A DNA stretch of 64,000 nucleotides from Octopus sinensis (taxonomy: Eukaryota), in assembly GCF_006345805.1 (NCBI RefSeq), contig NC_043023.1, forward strand, positions 9,486,001 to 9,550,000. Direction: 5' to 3'. A program made the position numbers. Within the stretch, counting starts at the first letter, position 1. Each line of letters begins with the position of its first letter. Shown here one piece after another: positions 27,001-63,000 of this stretch.

Positions 27001-30000
27001 ACACACCACACACACACACACACACACACACACACACACATATATATAAATATAATATATATATATATATATATGATGTATACATGAACTCTCACATACA
27101 GATGTGTAAACTAATCTCCCTTATCTCGTTCGTCTTCTTCATTTTCTATTTCTTACAATCAAGTTTTACTTGTCTTCACGTCTTTTTCTCTTTATTTTTT
27201 TCTCCTCTAATTTTGTATTTATTTCCTTATTTGTCGCCATAATCCTCATGTTTATAGTCATGGACAAACCACCACCATCATCGTCAACATCATCATCAAC
27301 TTCATCATATTATCTCACCATCATCATCAGCATCAATGCCACCGACGCTATAAACATCATCTACCTCATCATTATACCCATCTTCAACAATATCTATCTT
27401 CGTTATCAATCACCATCATCGTCGTTGTCATTCATCATTGTCATCATCTTCTTCATCAACTTTTTCCATTTCCATTTGTTTATTTTTCGTCTCTTCCTGC
27501 ATCGTATTGAAATATAATATTTAATATAGTATTTCTTAGCAATTACCGTTTATTTTACAGAGATCTATCCCACAATGCAATTTCAAGTTTGGAACAAAAT
27601 GCCTTCGAAACACTGACCGAAAAAAAGATTGTAAGTTGGATGTGTCTTGCTGATACTACTTTCTGTGCATTCCCCTCTTTATTTGACGTTTCTTGACACG
27701 TCTCTAGCTGATATTCACTCTAAATATATGCGAGACTCTGTGTGAATCTTAGTGCTTGTTGTGTATATGTGATGCACTTTGTGAAGAATAACAAAGATTA
27801 AAAATTGCTGCCAACAACTATCTCCAGAATGTAAGAATATCATCGCTACGAGTCAGAAACAGACTACTTAAAAATTTGTTCTTCACAAACTCCTGATCCG
27901 GTGCACCGTGCAAGATATCCCCTAGATCTTTAAGAAAAATGAACCAGCGAATCGAATAAAAAACGCAATGATCACCAGAAAGGAGTTGCAAGAAAATTTA
28001 TTAGCTTCAGGGACTAGTGTTACACTACGAACAATCAGCTATGAACTTCATAGGAATGAACTGAAGTCATGCTCACATAGAAAAACTCCGCTGTTGTCTA
28101 AAAGGCATAGAGATGCCCGTTTAAAATTTGTTTATGAACATAAAGAAAAATCTGATACATTCTGGGAAAATGTTCTATGGACAGACGAGTCGAAAATTGA
28201 ATTGTTTGGACGAAATTCGCGTAGCCATGTTTGAAGAAAAGATGGTACCGCCTATTCGCCGAAAAGGACCATCACGATCATCATCGCCAGCACCATCATC
28301 ATCAACGACATCATCATCATCATCATCATCATCATCATCATCATCATCATCATCATCATCATCATCATCATCATCATCATCATCATCATCATCATCATCA
28401 TCGCCATCATCATCATCATCCTCACTCATAATAATCTTCACTCATGATTTTCAGAATGTTCTTCGTTAAATTCTTTCACTACAGCTTATATTTCCTCTAT
28501 TTCTGCATGTAATTCATTAGCGATAATATTTGAAATTTTATGACTAATCTTTATATATAAAACTGAAGTTGTGTGAGAGTCTTTCTCAAACGATTTAGAT
28601 TCCTAACGACTCCCACATTTTGCGGTGCAGTTTAACCAAAAGCGGGTATCTTATAGTCGTGATTCATATCAAGCCCTTCTGGGTATTAGCGCGCGTCTAC
28701 GATGAGTCTACGATTTATAAATAAAATTACCATCATTTTTTCGTTTTTTTAATGCATTTTTGGCTCGGTTTATATCAGGGAAGTAACTCTCTAAAAATGC
28801 TTATATAGTTATTTCCCTTACAAACCCGAGCAACGCCGGGCGATACTGCTAGTTTCTTATATATTATTTCGTATCAATTATCTTTTATCTTTCAGATATC
28901 TATCCCATAATAAAATCACGAAAATTGAAAACGGACCACTTCGAAATCTTCAGAACTTAATGTATTTGTAAGTTGGATCAGTCTTGCTAAGACTACAAAC
29001 TTGACTTCCTTTCTTAAGCCTCTTTAGCCCTTCTCTAATTTTCTCGCATTTTCTCTATACATGTGTATGTCTAAGCGTGTGTGTGTCTGTTTCTGTGAAG
29101 GTTTGTGTGTGTATATATGTGTGTGTAAAGGTGTGTATGTGTGTGTGAAGGCGAGTGCATGTGAATAAGTTTGGATTCTATATCTTTGTGTAATATTATA
29201 TGTATAAGCGTATGCATGTGCATATATATTTGTGTCTGAAATGTGTGGATAACTATTTTCTTTTATTGTTTCCTTTTTCCGTCAGAGATATTGAGCGTAT
29301 CATAAATCTTTGCTCTGCTCTTCCAAAGAGGACTTTTTCGTCGCTTTGAGAACGCGATCTGTTCACTGACAACATTCTGTGCTGCATCTGAGAAAGTAAC
29401 AGTTAGTTCATGATATATACGTACGTATGTGTGTATGTATATATGTATGTATGTATGTATGTATTTATGTATGTATGTATGTATGTAAGTACATACGTAC
29501 ATACTTACATACATACATGCGTATAGGCATGCACACATGCATGCGCACATAGATGTACACATAATTTATTTTATTACCCTATTTACTATGTTTAAATATT
29601 GTTCGATAAATTTGCTCGTAGACTTTCTAACGGCAAGCTCTCTGTTCGCCGGATGTGATTTGCGTCTGCGAACTGGTCTGAAAAGTTAGGGTATACAGGT
29701 CATTAGATTTTCACGTGCTTCTAATGATATGTACTTCTCGGATTACAAAGGCTGCTTGCTGATGAGTCTAGCCATGGCAGATATTAATGACGACTATAAG
29801 AACCCGCTTTTGGTTAACTGCACCGCAAAATGCAGGAGTAGTTAGGAATCTAAATCGGAGGAGACAGACTCTCACACAACTTCAGTTTTATTATAAAGAT
29901 ATATCTGTAAATGTATGTGTGAAGTTCACTCACCAGATAATCGACAACACGTGCCAACCTGTGTGCACATTGGGCATAATTTGAAATCACCATCATACAA

Positions 30001-60000: not shown

Positions 60001-63000
60001 ATATATATATATATATATATATATAGGAACGCATATAAATATCACCGCACTGCCAGCGATATCATCTTCATCATCTACGTCATCATGATTATCATCTTCT
60101 TCATCTAATATTTTACTTCGTTATCTAATTGATTAGACATAATACTTTAAATTTTATGATTACTCTCCTCTATATTATAACTTACCAATTCTTTTATCTT
60201 ACAGACGATTATCCGATAATAAAATCTCGAAAATTGAAAAAGAATCATTTGTAAATCTTCCCAAGTTACATGAGATGTAAGTTGAATCAGTTTTGTAGAT
60301 ATTATTTCCTTGATTTCTAAGTATCTAATATCTTCCCATCTTTGTTTCTTATCCTTCTTTTTGCTCTTTTCTAATTCACATTCTCTCTGAATGTGTGTGC
60401 GATGATTTTATGTATATTTGTGTTTGAAATGTGCGGATAACAATGCATTCCGATAAATTTTCCTGTTTCATGAAGCATCTGTTTTACTGACGGTTGTGGA
60501 GATCTGTTCTCTGATGGTCTTAGGATCTGTTCGGTGACGGTCGTAGGATCTCTAATCTGGCGGTCGTAGTATCTGTTCGCTTACAGTCGTAAAATCTGTT
60601 CGCTGAAGGTCGTAGAATCAATTCGTTGACGGTCATGGAGATTCTTGTGCTTTATATGTACTCAACAAGCTGTGATTGGCTACAGATGACTTGGCACAAT
60701 TCATCCAATACGTGACCACCAAATACAGCTTCCTTGACTCACTTCATGTGGATTTGACGGCATAGAAGCAGCATCCCCTGTTCCAATATCTCACGTCTTC
60801 TGTGTTCCCCATCGACTACTTACAACTCATTTGATGAACATCATATTCGACTCTGCTTGATATAAACCTCTTTGTATATAGACAGTTATGCGATTTTGCA
60901 TTTGGACCCGTTTTATACGCAAAACTATGCCTCATTACACTACTGAATAAATTTAACGATCTTGCTTTATGAAATAGCATTGTGGATATTCTTTATCAAC
61001 GCCTTTATAATGAAACATTTTAAATGGATTCTCTCTAGAAACTCTCTTTGAAAATGCTAAATACATACATCTTACAACACTAACACATTTCATATCGGAG
61101 ACTTTCTTCACTATGGTCATTAGTAACTCTCCAAGTTACATTGGTAACCCGCTATATTAGTGACGACTATCATCGTTATCGTTACAGCTCTTCTCACTGC
61201 TGTTATCCCAGTGGATATTGACAATTGACCATGTCGGGGCGCTTTCACTAATTTTCTCATATGCTCTCTACAAATATGGCGTGCCGGGCAAAACCCATTT
61301 CGTTTCCACTAACAATATAAACCGTGTAGGATGATTATGTAACGCACAAATATCTGGTTTGTGTAGTCGACAACCTTGAATAATAACCGCTCAAGGTCAC
61401 CCACTATCTACTGGCTTACAGAATAATCTCTTTAGATATGATCTAATGACCCAACGCTGTTTGCCCAAGTCCATATTGGTGCATTCAAGGAATCCAGTTG
61501 GAAAAGAGTGGTGAGAATTGTGTCTTTAATATACACACCCGACTCTCTTAACACCTAGGCACACGCACACACATAACACGAGAAACAAAAGTGATGCAAT
61601 TAATACATTAGCTAAACCTGTTGTAGCCAAATAGATTTTAGCATCGTAAAATAGTTCACCAATGATGTTAGAAAAATTTATACGAAAATATACATTTTTC
61701 ACAATGGACCACATGCATCACCCAAGATAGATTATGCAGTTCTATATTTAAAAGATGAGGAATTATGTACATTATTTACATTATTTATATTTGATTATGC
61801 AACGAAAAGATAAGGGTTGTGGATTACTGCTACTTCAACTAGGAGCTTAGACACCTAATTAACAAAAACAAACGACTATCAGTATGAACGTTGTAAGGAA
61901 CTGTGCTATACATAAGAAAAAACTGAGACATATATGTGAAGGAGTTGCGGATCAACGAGACTGGGCTACAACGAGATGTATCTGAAGAACCAAGGATATG
62001 CGCGAGATCAGCTATCCGCTATTTCTATGTTTATATATTGTGAGCAGGGACGATTGATTACCTTATCTATTAGGCAGGTAAAGACCCAGAAAGCACGGCC
62101 TTGCCAAGCTGGAGGGGAGTGATTTGCCCCCTTTCTCAAAAAATATAGGACACAGATTGTATGCCATTAAGCAGCTGGAAAAGACATTTTCCTTGGGTTA
62201 AAATGTAATAACACAATTATTTATGCTGTTAGAAACATACAAACACATACACGCATAATATATATATGTATATATATAAATATATATATATATATATATA
62301 AAATGTGCTGTAATATTTACAGCTGTTAATAAAATGTTTTAGTTTGAAACAATTGTACTAAATTACCGGATTCATTCTTGTTGCTTATTTTTATATATAT
62401 GTAAATGGATGAATGAATTATCCTTTGTCTACTGCTAACATGGAATTCAATAAACATTTACCAGGGTAGCAAAATTCACGTGAGTAACATGGATGAAGCG
62501 ACCTATTCAAAGGTAGAAACTCCGGGTTAATGTGCAATAATTTGTATAGTATAAGTAAATAAATAGAGTTGAACGATGTTATTAAAATTCATTTAATAAC
62601 ATCTTCGTTCAACTCCATTTATTTACTTATATATATATATATATATATATATATATATATATACATATATACATACACACACACACACACATATATATAT
62701 ATATATATACATATATACATACACACACACACACATATATATGTGTGTCTGTGTGTGTGCATACACGCATATACTTACAAACAAACATTCATTCCATATA
62801 CAAGATTTCAATTTGAAAATAAGCATCGTTTAATTCAGTGCAATTTATTTATATGTAGTTATATATCAGTTCCTCGAATAAGTTCTGTCCGAATTTTGAA
62901 TAAAGAAAACAAGTGATCAAATGTTACATTTAGAGAGAAGAATCTTTTCCCCACGGAGTTCCCTTCTCGGTTGTGGTTGAGCTTTTTCCCTTTTACCAAG

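What the first reader, a model, noticed from the sequence alone, without database searches (positions are those of the whole stretch)
27561..60276. Hidden array of 20 interchangeable 72-nt LRR micro-exons
Seen: 20 exons on the + strand, each with a pyrimidine tract plus CAG acceptor and (19 of 20) a GTAAGT donor. Each encodes one typical 24-aa LRR (LxxLxLxxNxIxxIxxxxFxxLxx); 18 are exactly 72 nt. All start with A and end in TT or AT, so every possible junction rebuilds Leu (TTA) or Ile (ATA) at the same conserved core position. One unit splices to 168 aa (7 LRRs). Known: one LRR per 72-nt phase-2 exon occurs in LGR and glycoprotein-hormone receptors. Inference: this is a very long LRR ectodomain whose length and composition can change freely by exon skipping or unequal crossover. 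It is a candidate diversified recognition receptor (Dscam- or VLR-like in logic). The ORF track misses all of it.
Basis: partly seen in the sequence, partly recalled or inferred. Interest (0 to 1): 0.92.

Follow-up and report, generated by a model that had tools for sequence, protein, structure and literature searches.

The report
Tandemly triplicated seven-exon LRR cassette
Twenty small exons that each encode one leucine-rich repeat are really there, but they are three nearly identical tandem copies of one seven-exon block, so the locus can vary in repeat number and does not offer a diverse receptor repertoire.

Summary
There are 20 plus-strand exons, each with a CAG acceptor. 18 of 20 are 72 nt, 19 of 20 have a GTAAGT donor, and all sit between phase-2 introns. 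Each encodes one typical LRR.

They lie in a head-to-tail array of a 12.4-12.8 kb unit that starts in a microsatellite near 26,950 and runs off the window end, about 2.9 units. Copies differ by 0.4-1.3% in substitutions, and exons differ as much as introns. Only 7 exon types and 8 distinct in-frame peptides exist among the 18 in-frame exons. The oldest copy carries two frame-breaking exons (70 and 71 nt). One exon in the middle copy has lost its donor.

Between the old exon types, about 25-30 nt of intron on each side is better conserved (78-80%) than the exons (62%). They have therefore long been genuine spliced exons.

Best reading: a recent intragenic amplification of a multi-exon cassette in an LRR-ectodomain gene. 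It gives length variation in steps of seven LRRs, not a Dscam- or VLR-like repertoire. This architecture is already known from gonadotropin receptors/LGRs, brown algae and Tetrahymena. I made or searched no joined exon product, and there is no transcript evidence.

The parts
26953..64000 (+). Head-to-tail array of a 12.4-12.8 kb unit, about 2.9 units, cut off by the window end.
   Evidence: Self-BLAST offsets are 12,438-12,770 nt at 95-99.65% identity. Three-unit alignment.
26950..27090 (.). 5' edge of the array, inside a compound (TA)n(CA)n(TA)n microsatellite. Sequence upstream of it is unrelated to the other units.
   Evidence: Alignment A3.
26953..39712 (+). Unit 1, the edge copy and the most diverged. 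It holds exons 1-7.
   Evidence: Versus unit 2: 1.19% intron substitutions and 64 indel events.
39713..52436 (+). Unit 2. It holds exons 8-14.
52437..64000 (+). Unit 3. It holds exons 15-20 and is cut about 390 nt before where its seventh exon is expected.
   Evidence: The expected position comes from the 12,438-nt offset.
27561..27630 (+). Exon 1, type T2, 70 nt. It breaks the frame.
   Evidence: In the shifted frame the next three exons contain stops.
28896..28967 (+). Exon 2, type T3, 72 nt.
30829..30900 (+). Exon 3, type T4, 72 nt.
32354..32425 (+). Exon 4, type T5, 72 nt.
33022..33092 (+). Exon 5, type T6, 71 nt. It has one A fewer in an A run and breaks the frame.
35009..35080 (+). Exon 6, type T7, identical in sequence to type T5.
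39228..39299 (+). Exon 7, type T1, 72 nt.
40341..40412 (+). Exon 8, type T2, 72 nt.
41716..41787 (+). Exon 9, type T3, 72 nt.
43569..43640 (+). Exon 10, type T4, 72 nt.
45103..45174 (+). Exon 11, type T5, 72 nt.
45779..45850 (+). Exon 12, type T6, 72 nt.
47767..47838 (+). Exon 13, type T7, 72 nt.
51950..52021 (+). Exon 14, type T1, 72 nt. Its donor is ATAAGT instead of GTAAGT.
53067..53138 (+). Exon 15, type T2, 72 nt.
54427..54498 (+). Exon 16, type T3, 72 nt. It has three non-synonymous differences from exon 9.
56278..56349 (+). Exon 17, type T4, 72 nt.
57742..57813 (+). Exon 18, type T5, 72 nt.
58417..58488 (+). Exon 19, type T6, 72 nt.
60205..60276 (+). Exon 20, type T7, 72 nt.

Best explanation
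The 20 exons belong to one plus-strand gene for a protein with a long run of typical 24-residue leucine-rich repeats. The gene is built in the classical way: one repeat per 72-nt exon, with every intron in phase 2.

Inside this gene, a 12.4-12.8 kb block holding seven such exons has very recently been amplified head to tail. At least 2.9 copies are visible, and the array runs off the window. The amplification was probably by unequal crossover or slippage at a microsatellite.

Shown:
- the exons, their phase and their LRR character;
- the tandem array and its 5' edge;
- the near-identity of the copies, and the equal rate of change in exons and introns;
- the three defective exons;
- long-term conservation of the splice flanks between the old exon types.

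Inferred:
- The exons are transcribed and spliced one after another into a long, monotonous LRR solenoid.
- The two frame-breaking exons and the donor-less exon are skipped, or else they spoil the transcript.
- Because every exon is phase-symmetric, copy-number change alters the protein in steps of seven LRRs without breaking the frame.

What varies is therefore length, not specificity-determining sequence. The rest of the gene is not in the window. The neighbouring adhesion-GPCR exon and the literature make an adhesion-GPCR or LGR-type ectodomain a reasonable guess, but I did not test this.
For: Exons, phase and LRR identity.

Tandem array: self-BLAST shows offsets of 12,438-12,770 nt at 95-99.65% identity from 26,953 to 64,000. 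The 5' edge lies in a microsatellite.

Recent and neutral-looking divergence:
- units 1-2: 143/12,060 intron mismatches against 3/501 in exons;
- units 2-3: 47/11,120 against 3/432;
- units 1-3: 145/11,014 against 5/429.
- There are 2 exon indels in unit 1, where about 2.6 are expected from 64 indel events per ~12.4 kb.

Low diversity: 7 types, with T5 = T7 at 72/72 nt and T2 and T6 sharing 19 of 23 residues. That gives 8 distinct peptides in 18 in-frame exons.

Nested older duplications lie inside the unit. T5 block vs T7 block: 0/72 exon, 21/841 elsewhere. T2 block vs T6 block: 4/72 exon, 67/1,575 elsewhere.

Long-term exon status, from the 5 distinct types in 10 pairs:
- the 25-nt intron flanks are 80% and 78% identical, the exons 62%, distal intron 49-50%;
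- downstream conservation reaches about +30;
- codon position 2 is 78% identical against 54-55% for positions 1 and 3.

Precedents:
- Phase-2 LRR exons in gonadotropin receptors, and 72-bp phase-2 LRR exons in brown algae (passages of PMC11378527; section 15 of PMC3341825).
- A protein-coding multi-kb VNTR, LPA KIV-2 (abstract listing of PMC11462820).
Against: - No transcript data of any kind.
- No start, signal peptide, LRRNT, LRRCT, transmembrane or stop-bearing exon of this gene could be recognised in the window, so 'one gene' is an inference.
- Exons in the copies change as fast as introns. This fits very young functional copies and dead copies equally well.
- The first LRR exon of the array is itself frame-broken.
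- Copy number rests on a single assembly. Units 2 and 3 differ by only 0.42%.
- A frame switch inside an A7 run in the neighbouring GPCR exon hints that homopolymer-length errors may exist in this assembly. That would also bear on the 71-nt exon.
Confidence: 0.6

Rival explanations
1. One reading: a recognition receptor that gains diversity through combinatorial use of interchangeable LRR exons (exon skipping, Dscam- or VLR-like logic).
For: - Every 72-nt exon is phase-symmetric, with the same A...TT/AT ends.
- Splice-proximal intron sequence is nearly uniform across all types and better conserved than the exons: 78-80% against 62%. As I recall, this pattern is typical of regulated cassette exons.
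- Variable residues fall at the usual ligand-facing x positions.
- pN/pS between types is high, with pN 0.11-0.53 against pS 0.15-0.69.
- Precedent: brown-algal LRR exon arrays with several splice combinations (passages of PMC11378527).
- LGR5 transcripts lacking one LRR exon exist (passages of PMC3203099).
Against: - Only 8 distinct peptides in 18 in-frame exons, and six exons encode the same peptide. Units 2 and 3 differ at 3 of 432 exon positions. Combinations would therefore differ mainly in length.
- No sign of diversifying selection between copies.
- Donor-side to acceptor-side RNA pairing over all 49 pairs is close to shuffled controls: mean -11.3 against -9.6 +/- 2.6 kcal/mol. Only the T2/T6 acceptors stand out.
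- The cassettes have normal splice sites, unlike VLR donor cassettes.
- Three exons are defective.
Confidence: 0.1
2. A decaying or never-functional amplified segment: the array is a pseudogenised gene piece, and the exons are no longer used.
For: - No recognisable gene start or end in 64 kb.
- The first exon of the array breaks the frame, a second does too, and a third has lost its donor.
- Exon substitutions (1 synonymous, 4 non-synonymous, 1 within the indel) and exon indels occur at the intron rate.
- The region upstream is filled with retroelement pieces and simple repeats.
Against: - 17 of 20 exons are intact with consensus splice sites.
- Between the old types, the splice flanks and the LRR scaffold positions have been kept while the rest of the introns has diverged beyond alignment. 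The ancestral unit was therefore under selection.
- The copies are too young (0.4-1.3%) for absence of selection to show.
Confidence: 0.15
3. The copy number is an assembly artefact. One real seven-exon unit, or two alleles of it, was laid out several times in tandem.
For: - Units 2 and 3 differ by only 0.42% in substitutions, which is within the range of allelic difference in many invertebrates (recalled).
- A frame switch in an A7 run of the neighbouring gene and a one-base loss in an A run of exon 5 would fit homopolymer-length errors.
Against: - No N or gap anywhere in the window.
- Three grades of divergence are present: 0.42%, 1.2-1.3%, and nested 2.5-4.3%.
- The units differ in microsatellite lengths and larger indels.
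- The array has a clean unique-to-repeat edge.
Confidence: 0.1
4. A tandem cluster of separate small LRR-only genes, one per 12.7 kb unit, each with its own first and last exon in the 4.1 kb space between exon types T7 and T1.
For: The 4.1 kb space is the longest interval in the unit. Small secreted LRR-only proteins are common (recalled).
Against: - In 47,839-51,949 I found no ATG-led hydrophobic exon, no Cys-rich capping motif and no further GTAAGT donor.
- T7 ends and T1 begins in the same phase as all the others.
- The array edge cuts between T1 and T2, not in that space.
Confidence: 0.05

Closest known systems
LRR exon architecture of glycoprotein-hormone receptors and LGRs
   Same: - One LRR per exon of about 72 nt, with all introns in phase 2 (passage of PMC11378527 citing Koo 1991 and Kobe & Deisenhofer 1994).
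- Single LRR exons can be skipped, as in LGR5 transcripts lacking exon 5 or exon 8 (passages of PMC3203099).
- LGR4 is the best natural PDB match of the single-repeat profile, at E 4.3e-5.
   Different: - In those genes each LRR exon is old and unique. There is no recent 12.7 kb multi-exon cassette in near-identical tandem copies.
- No rhodopsin-type 7TM, LRRNT or hinge was seen here.
- The PDB ranking is generic: LRRC32, decorin, VLR, Slit2 and TLR8 follow within a few bits.
Brown-algal ROCO and other LRR genes with 72-bp phase-2 LRR exons, exon shuffling and alternative splicing (Zambounis 2012; Teng 2024)
   Same: - 72-nt exons, phase 2, one LRR each, in long arrays.
- Inactivated exons (lost splice sites, frame breaks) sit among intact ones.
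- The same idea of a repertoire made by exon combination has been proposed (abstract and section 15 of PMC3341825; passages of PMC11378527).
   Different: - The algal exons are shuffled singly, are also found on the opposite strand, and are reported to be under diversifying selection.
- Here whole seven-exon blocks are copied in direct order and are nearly identical.
- The algal proteins are cytosolic ROCO GTPases.
- The exon boundary here matches their 'type II' register (xLxxNxL...), which they report as not shuffled.
Tetrahymena LRR genes with arrays of exactly 90-bp exons
   Same: Arrays of equal-length LRR exons separated by phase-2 introns, with a 'junction' codon shared by neighbouring exons. 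They expanded by recombination (abstract and passages of PMC6564038).
   Different: 90-bp rather than 72-bp exons, in a ciliate. There are thousands of genes rather than one multi-exon macro-repeat.
LPA kringle IV-2 coding VNTR
   Same: [quoted passage not shown]
   Different: Kringle domain, two exons per unit, in humans. Copy-number polymorphism is documented there and is untested here.
Dscam exon clusters and lamprey VLR cassettes
   Same: Many similar coding cassettes in a row at one locus. VLRs are LRR proteins, and VLR chains appear as weak profile hits at E 0.075-2.7.
   Different: - Dscam alternatives differ in sequence and are used one at a time (recalled). Here most cassettes are duplicates.
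- VLR cassettes lack splice sites and are copied in somatically (recalled). Here 19 of 20 have consensus donors and 20 of 20 have acceptors.
Octopus-specific adhesion-GPCR expansion with N-terminal LRRs (Ritschard 2019)
   Same: - A plus-strand adhesion-type 7tm_2 exon lies 26 kb upstream in the window.
- The paper reports tandemly placed adhesion GPCRs, with LRRs in 5 of 22 sequences and expression in suckers and skin (passages of PMC6408891).
   Different: - The 7TM exon seen here belongs to the upstream neighbour, not to the LRR array.
- The organism of the window is not established. The only hint is an Atlas cluster whose commonest phylum is Mollusca, with phylum known for just 4 members.
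- The paper's supplementary tables could not be opened.

Membership tests
Leucine-rich repeat, typical 24-residue type (Pfam LRR_8 / LRR clan) | The repeat motif LxxLxLxxNxIxxIxxxxFxxLxx is recognised by the family profile. | tested here: met
   - LRR_8 is the top family for 9 of 9 single-exon peptides, at E 3.1e-4 to 0.072. Each is below the 27-bit cut-off because only one repeat was given at a time.
- L2, N5, I7 and E11 are invariant in 9 peptides.
- Atlas nearest clusters are all LRR, at 0.91-0.95.
Leucine-rich repeat, typical 24-residue type (Pfam LRR_8 / LRR clan) | Several repeats in one polypeptide scoring above the curated cut-off, and a solenoid fold. | not tested
LGR / glycoprotein-hormone receptor family | One LRR per ~72-nt exon, all introns in phase 2. 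| tested here: met
   18 of 20 exons are 72 nt, with phase 2 on both sides.
LGR / glycoprotein-hormone receptor family | An N-terminal cysteine cap (LRRNT) before the first LRR. | tested here: not met
   No CxxCxC-type motif outside microsatellite translations in 1-27,560. It could still lie outside the window or be atypical.
LGR / glycoprotein-hormone receptor family | Hinge plus a rhodopsin-type 7TM domain downstream of the LRRs. | not testable with these tools
   The array runs off the 3' end of the window. No eukaryotic sequence collection was open.
Adhesion GPCR with N-terminal LRRs | GAIN/GPS and a 7tm_2 domain downstream of the LRRs in the same gene. | not testable with these tools
   Only an upstream neighbour's 7tm_2 exon is seen, at 1399-1783. 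Pfam gives 21.1 and 29.8 bits against a 20.6 cut-off. ADGRG2 matches at E 7.5e-12.
Dscam-like cluster of mutually exclusive exons | The alternative exons differ in sequence, so that choice changes specificity. | tested here: not met
   8 distinct peptides in 18 in-frame exons. Units 2 and 3 differ at 3 of 432 exon positions.
Dscam-like cluster of mutually exclusive exons | Docking-site/selector RNA pairing in the introns. | tested here: inconclusive
   Over 49 donor-side x acceptor-side duplexes the mean is -11.3 kcal/mol, against -9.6 +/- 2.6 for shuffles. Only the T2/T6 acceptors reach -15 to -18.3.
Dscam-like cluster of mutually exclusive exons | Only one exon of the cluster is present per transcript. 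| not testable with these tools
   No transcript data.
VLR-like somatic assembly | Donor cassettes without splice signals, flanking an incomplete germline gene. | tested here: not met
   20 of 20 cassettes have CAG acceptors and 19 of 20 have GTAAGT donors.
Protein-coding macrosatellite / multi-exon VNTR (LPA KIV-2 type) | A multi-kb unit with in-frame exons, repeated head to tail in near-identical copies. | tested here: met
   A unit of 12.4-12.8 kb in about 2.9 copies, with 0.42-1.32% substitutions and 7 x 72 nt per unit.
Protein-coding macrosatellite / multi-exon VNTR (LPA KIV-2 type) | Copy number varies between alleles or individuals. | not testable with these tools
   Only a single assembly is available.

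The most novel reading that the evidence does not exclude
This would be an animal counterpart of the brown-algal LRR exon-array system. A copy-number-unstable array of seven-LRR cassettes has uniform, strongly conserved splice flanks (more conserved than the exons) that let any donor join any acceptor. Individuals, or even cells, would then express receptors of different LRR number and order, possibly as the ectodomain of one of the lineage-specific adhesion GPCRs.
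Probability: 0.08. Interest if true: 0.7.

Novelty: new member of a known kind. Interest (0 to 1): 0.33.

Why it matters
If the array is real and expressed, it is a clean, very young example of how LRR domains lengthen. A whole block of phase-symmetric exons is copied at a microsatellite, each copy adds seven repeats without breaking the frame, and the edge copy is already decaying. That makes it a useful natural case for studying birth and death of repeat exons. It may also be a copy-number-variable surface protein.

It does not at present give evidence for a new way of generating receptor diversity. The one-LRR-per-72-nt phase-2 design and the idea of exon-combination repertoires are already in print for other lineages.

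Tried and rejected
1. Further LRR exons outside the 20. A local profile search of all six frames found none; the next best hit has E = 1.3.

2. A gene start. No LRRNT-like cysteine motif exists upstream except in microsatellite translations. Pfam on 10 upstream stop-free stretches gave only the neighbour's 7tm_2 and nothing for this gene.

3. One gene per unit. I found no ATG-led hydrophobic exon, capping motif or extra GTAAGT donor in the 4.1 kb T7-to-T1 space. I rate this model low but it is not excluded.

4. Naming the gene family from the repeat alone. The PDB profile search ranks LGR4 first among natural proteins (E 4.3e-5), but LRRC32, decorin, LRRC4C, VLR, Slit2, LHCGR and TLR8 follow closely. 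The Atlas gives only generic LRR clusters. This is not discriminating.

5. Docking/selector pairing. Results are close to shuffled controls overall. Most inverted repeats in a unit are (TA)n tracts, plus a 124-nt element.

6. Selection between copies. Exon and intron rates do not differ, and the counts are too small to separate 'young' from 'dead'.

7. tRNA genes and Rfam families in the window: 0 and 0.

8. Left out on instruction. I built no joined exon product, so there is no Pfam or PDB search of a 168-aa product, no structure prediction and no fold search.

9. Not checked:
- Relatives in other eukaryotic genomes or protein sets. The one open genome collection holds bacteria and archaea only, so I did not use it.
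- Supplementary tables of PMC6408891, which list the LRR-bearing octopus adhesion GPCRs and their scaffolds and could bear on the gene's identity.
- The organism. I did not establish it.

Full report
WHAT IS THERE.
- All 20 follow a T-rich tract ending in CAG.
- 19 of 20 are followed by GTAAGT. The one at 51,950-52,021 has ATAAGT.
- 18 of 20 are 72 nt. The first is 70 nt and the fifth is 71 nt.
- All 20 begin with A and end with TT or AT.

In the 72-nt exons, one leading base, 23 open codons and two trailing bases mean that both flanking introns are in phase 2. The shared junction codon is TTA or ATA, which falls at LRR position 4. I checked this exon by exon and by arithmetic. As the operators instructed, I did not build, search or fold the joined product, so '168 aa per unit' is only 7 x 72 / 3.

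IS IT MORE THAN CHANCE, AND IS IT LRR?
- A local profile made from 18 of the exons (partly circular) finds these 20 and nothing else in all six frames. E is 1.8e-16 to 1.3e-12, and the next best hit has E = 1.3.
- Independently, Pfam LRR_8 is the top family for 9 of 9 single-exon peptides at E 3.1e-4 to 0.072. Each is under the 27-bit cut-off, as expected for one repeat.
- The ESM Atlas places one exon peptide next to LRR clusters only, at 0.91-0.95.
- The interval AG-72 nt-GTAAGT occurs 18 times on the + strand, 17 of them these exons. Chance predicts 1.35, and the - strand has 1.

THE FACT THAT CHANGES THE READING. The exons are not 20 independent modules. Self-comparison shows a head-to-tail array with offsets of 12,438-12,770 nt and 95-99.65% identity, from 26,953 to the end of the window. 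Its 5' edge lies inside a compound (TA)n(CA)n microsatellite at about 26,950-27,090, and the sequence upstream of that edge is unrelated. In the array's own register the units are:
- 26,953-39,712, holding exons 1-7;
- 39,713-52,436, holding exons 8-14;
- 52,437-64,000, holding exons 15-20, cut about 390 nt before the expected seventh exon.

There are seven exon types. T5 and T7 are identical at 72/72 nt. T2 and T6 share 19 of 23 residues. The 18 in-frame exons encode only 8 distinct peptides, and six of them encode the same one.

HOW YOUNG, AND IS THERE SELECTION? Counting substitutions only:
- units 1-2: 143/12,060 (1.19%) in introns against 3/501 in exons;
- units 2-3: 47/11,120 (0.42%) against 3/432;
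- units 1-3: 145/11,014 (1.32%) against 5/429.

Exons and introns are therefore indistinguishable. The exon point changes are 1 synonymous, 4 non-synonymous (all in type T3) and 1 inside an indel.

Unit 1 differs from unit 2 by 64 indel events. From that density about 2.6 would be expected in 501 exon positions, and 2 are seen. Both break the frame (the 70-nt and 71-nt exons). Read in the frame left by the 70-nt exon, each of the next three exons contains stops. With the lost donor of exon 14, this makes three defective exons. The edge copy is the most diverged.

Inside the unit there are older nested duplications:
- T5 block vs T7 block: 0/72 exon, 21/841 elsewhere;
- T2 block vs T6 block: 4/72 exon, 67/1,575 elsewhere.

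Again there is no exon effect.

EVIDENCE THAT THESE HAVE LONG BEEN REAL EXONS. Compare the five distinct types of one unit (10 pairs).
- The 25 nt of intron on each side are 80% and 78% identical, the exons 62%, and more distant intron 49-50%, which is about what unrelated AT-rich sequence gives after alignment.
- Without gaps, downstream identity is 0.90, 0.70 and 0.65 for +1-10, +11-20 and +21-30, then about 0.3.
- Within exons, codon position 2 is 78% identical and positions 1 and 3 are 54-55%. pS is 0.15-0.69 and pN is 0.11-0.53.

The LRR scaffold and about 30 nt of splice-proximal intron have thus been kept while synonymous sites and the rest of the introns have diverged to saturation. 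This argues for a gene that was under selection for splicing and fold.

WHAT GENE? The repeat alone does not tell.
- A profile of single repeats hits a designed LRR protein first, then LGR4 (E 4.3e-5). LRRC32, decorin, LRRC4C, VLR, Slit2, LHCGR and TLR8 follow within a few bits.
- No LRRNT-like motif, signal-peptide exon, capping exon or other donor was found upstream or in the 4.1 kb T7-T1 space.
- Upstream, at 1399-1783 on the + strand, lies the last-TM exon of an adhesion-type GPCR. Pfam 7tm_2 scores 21.1 and 29.8 bits against a 20.6 cut-off, and ADGRG2 matches at E 7.5e-12.
- That exon reads in two frames, with the switch inside an A7 run, and it ends at a GTAAGT donor in phase 1. It therefore cannot feed the phase-2 LRR exons directly.
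- The Atlas' nearest cluster for this piece is 7tm_2 with Mollusca as the commonest phylum, although the phylum is known for only 4 members.
- Passages of PMC6408891 report an octopus-specific, tandemly placed expansion of adhesion GPCRs, with LRRs in 5 of 22 sequences and expression in suckers and skin.

This makes 'LRR ectodomain of the next adhesion GPCR' a fair guess, but it is a lead and not a test. I did not establish the organism, and the paper's supplementary tables were closed.

COMPARISON WITH WHAT IS KNOWN.
- Gonadotropin receptors have one LRR per roughly 72-nt exon with phase-2 introns. Brown-algal ROCO and other LRR genes have exactly 72-bp phase-2 exons, with exon shuffling, inactivated exons inside arrays, several splice combinations and the same 'repertoire' hypothesis (passages of PMC11378527; abstract and section 15 of PMC3341825).
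- Tetrahymena has arrays of 90-bp phase-2 LRR exons with a shared junction codon (abstract and passages of PMC6564038).
- LGR5 transcripts lacking one LRR exon exist (passages of PMC3203099).
- A multi-kb coding unit repeated in near-identical copies is known from LPA KIV-2 (abstract listing of PMC11462820).
- My searches for a cephalopod or adhesion-GPCR LRR exon-duplication report returned only PMC6408891 as relevant. I cannot say more than that about what is in print.

VERDICT. The structure is real and neat. It is a recent tandem amplification of a seven-exon LRR cassette inside, or as a remnant of, an LRR gene of classical design. It supports growth by unequal crossover and frame-safe length change. 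It does not support a diversified Dscam- or VLR-like receptor. I rate it a new member of a known kind, with interest 0.33.

The boldest reading still open is an animal parallel to the algal system, with any-to-any splicing of a copy-number-unstable array. I put it at about 8%.

Still unknown, and not decidable with the tools at hand: transcripts, copy number in reads, the ends of the gene, and relatives in other genomes.

Noticed in passing
window 1352-1920 (+), exon about 1399-1783: This is the last transmembrane exon of an adhesion-type (7tm_2) GPCR gene on the same strand as the LRR array. Its reading frame switches inside an A7 run, so it is either a pseudogene or a homopolymer-length error of the assembly. 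It ends at a GTAAGT donor in phase 1.
   Followed up: partly
window 39128-47938 (flanks of exons 7-13), and likewise in the other units: About 25-30 nt of intron on each side of every LRR exon type is better conserved between types (78-80%) than the exons themselves (62%). Downstream conservation reaches about +30, well past the donor consensus.
   Followed up: yes
window 40241-40340 and 45679-45778 (acceptor side of types T2/T6) against the donor sides of T1, T2, T3 and T6: The conserved donor-side element can pair with the acceptor-side element of the T2/T6 exons, at -15 to -18.3 kcal/mol against -9.6 +/- 2.6 for shuffles. Other acceptors do not stand out. This may be inherited chance.
   Followed up: partly
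window 41367-41490, 42627-42750, 46796-46919: Copies of a 124-nt element, 94% complementary, lie in opposite orientation in neighbouring introns. They bracket exon 9, and also exons 10-12. It is probably a small mobile element.
   Followed up: no
window 28128-28469, 33576-33938, 40910-41251, 46336-46680, 58974-59321 (+): Intronic ORFs share a short N-terminal stretch followed by Ser-rich low complexity. They are found after exon types T2 and T6. From memory the stretch resembles a Tc1/mariner transposase fragment. Pfam gave no transposase hit for the two I searched.
   Followed up: partly
window 19287-21310 (+) and 6081-6809 (+): These are pieces of a non-LTR retroelement. RVT_1 matches at E 2.2e-17 and 1.2e-6, in separate ORFs, and zf-RVT matches at E 2.3e-5.
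   Followed up: partly
window 1884-2188 and 14191-14755; also about 17355-17600: Tandem repeats of 151 and 190 nt, in 2-3 copies at 96-97% match, whose translations resemble one another. This is possibly a SINE-like or satellite family.
   Followed up: no
window 12306-13074 and 21773-22392: Long (CATA)n/(TATG)n arrays lie in inverted orientation about 9 kb apart, 80-86% alike. Also, 4736-5148 and 9093-9501 are a 95% direct repeat.
   Followed up: no
window 38704-39084 and 51426-51806 (-): A Gly-rich low-complexity ORF of 126 aa lies on the opposite strand just upstream of each T1 exon, copied along with the unit. There is no family evidence for it.
   Followed up: no
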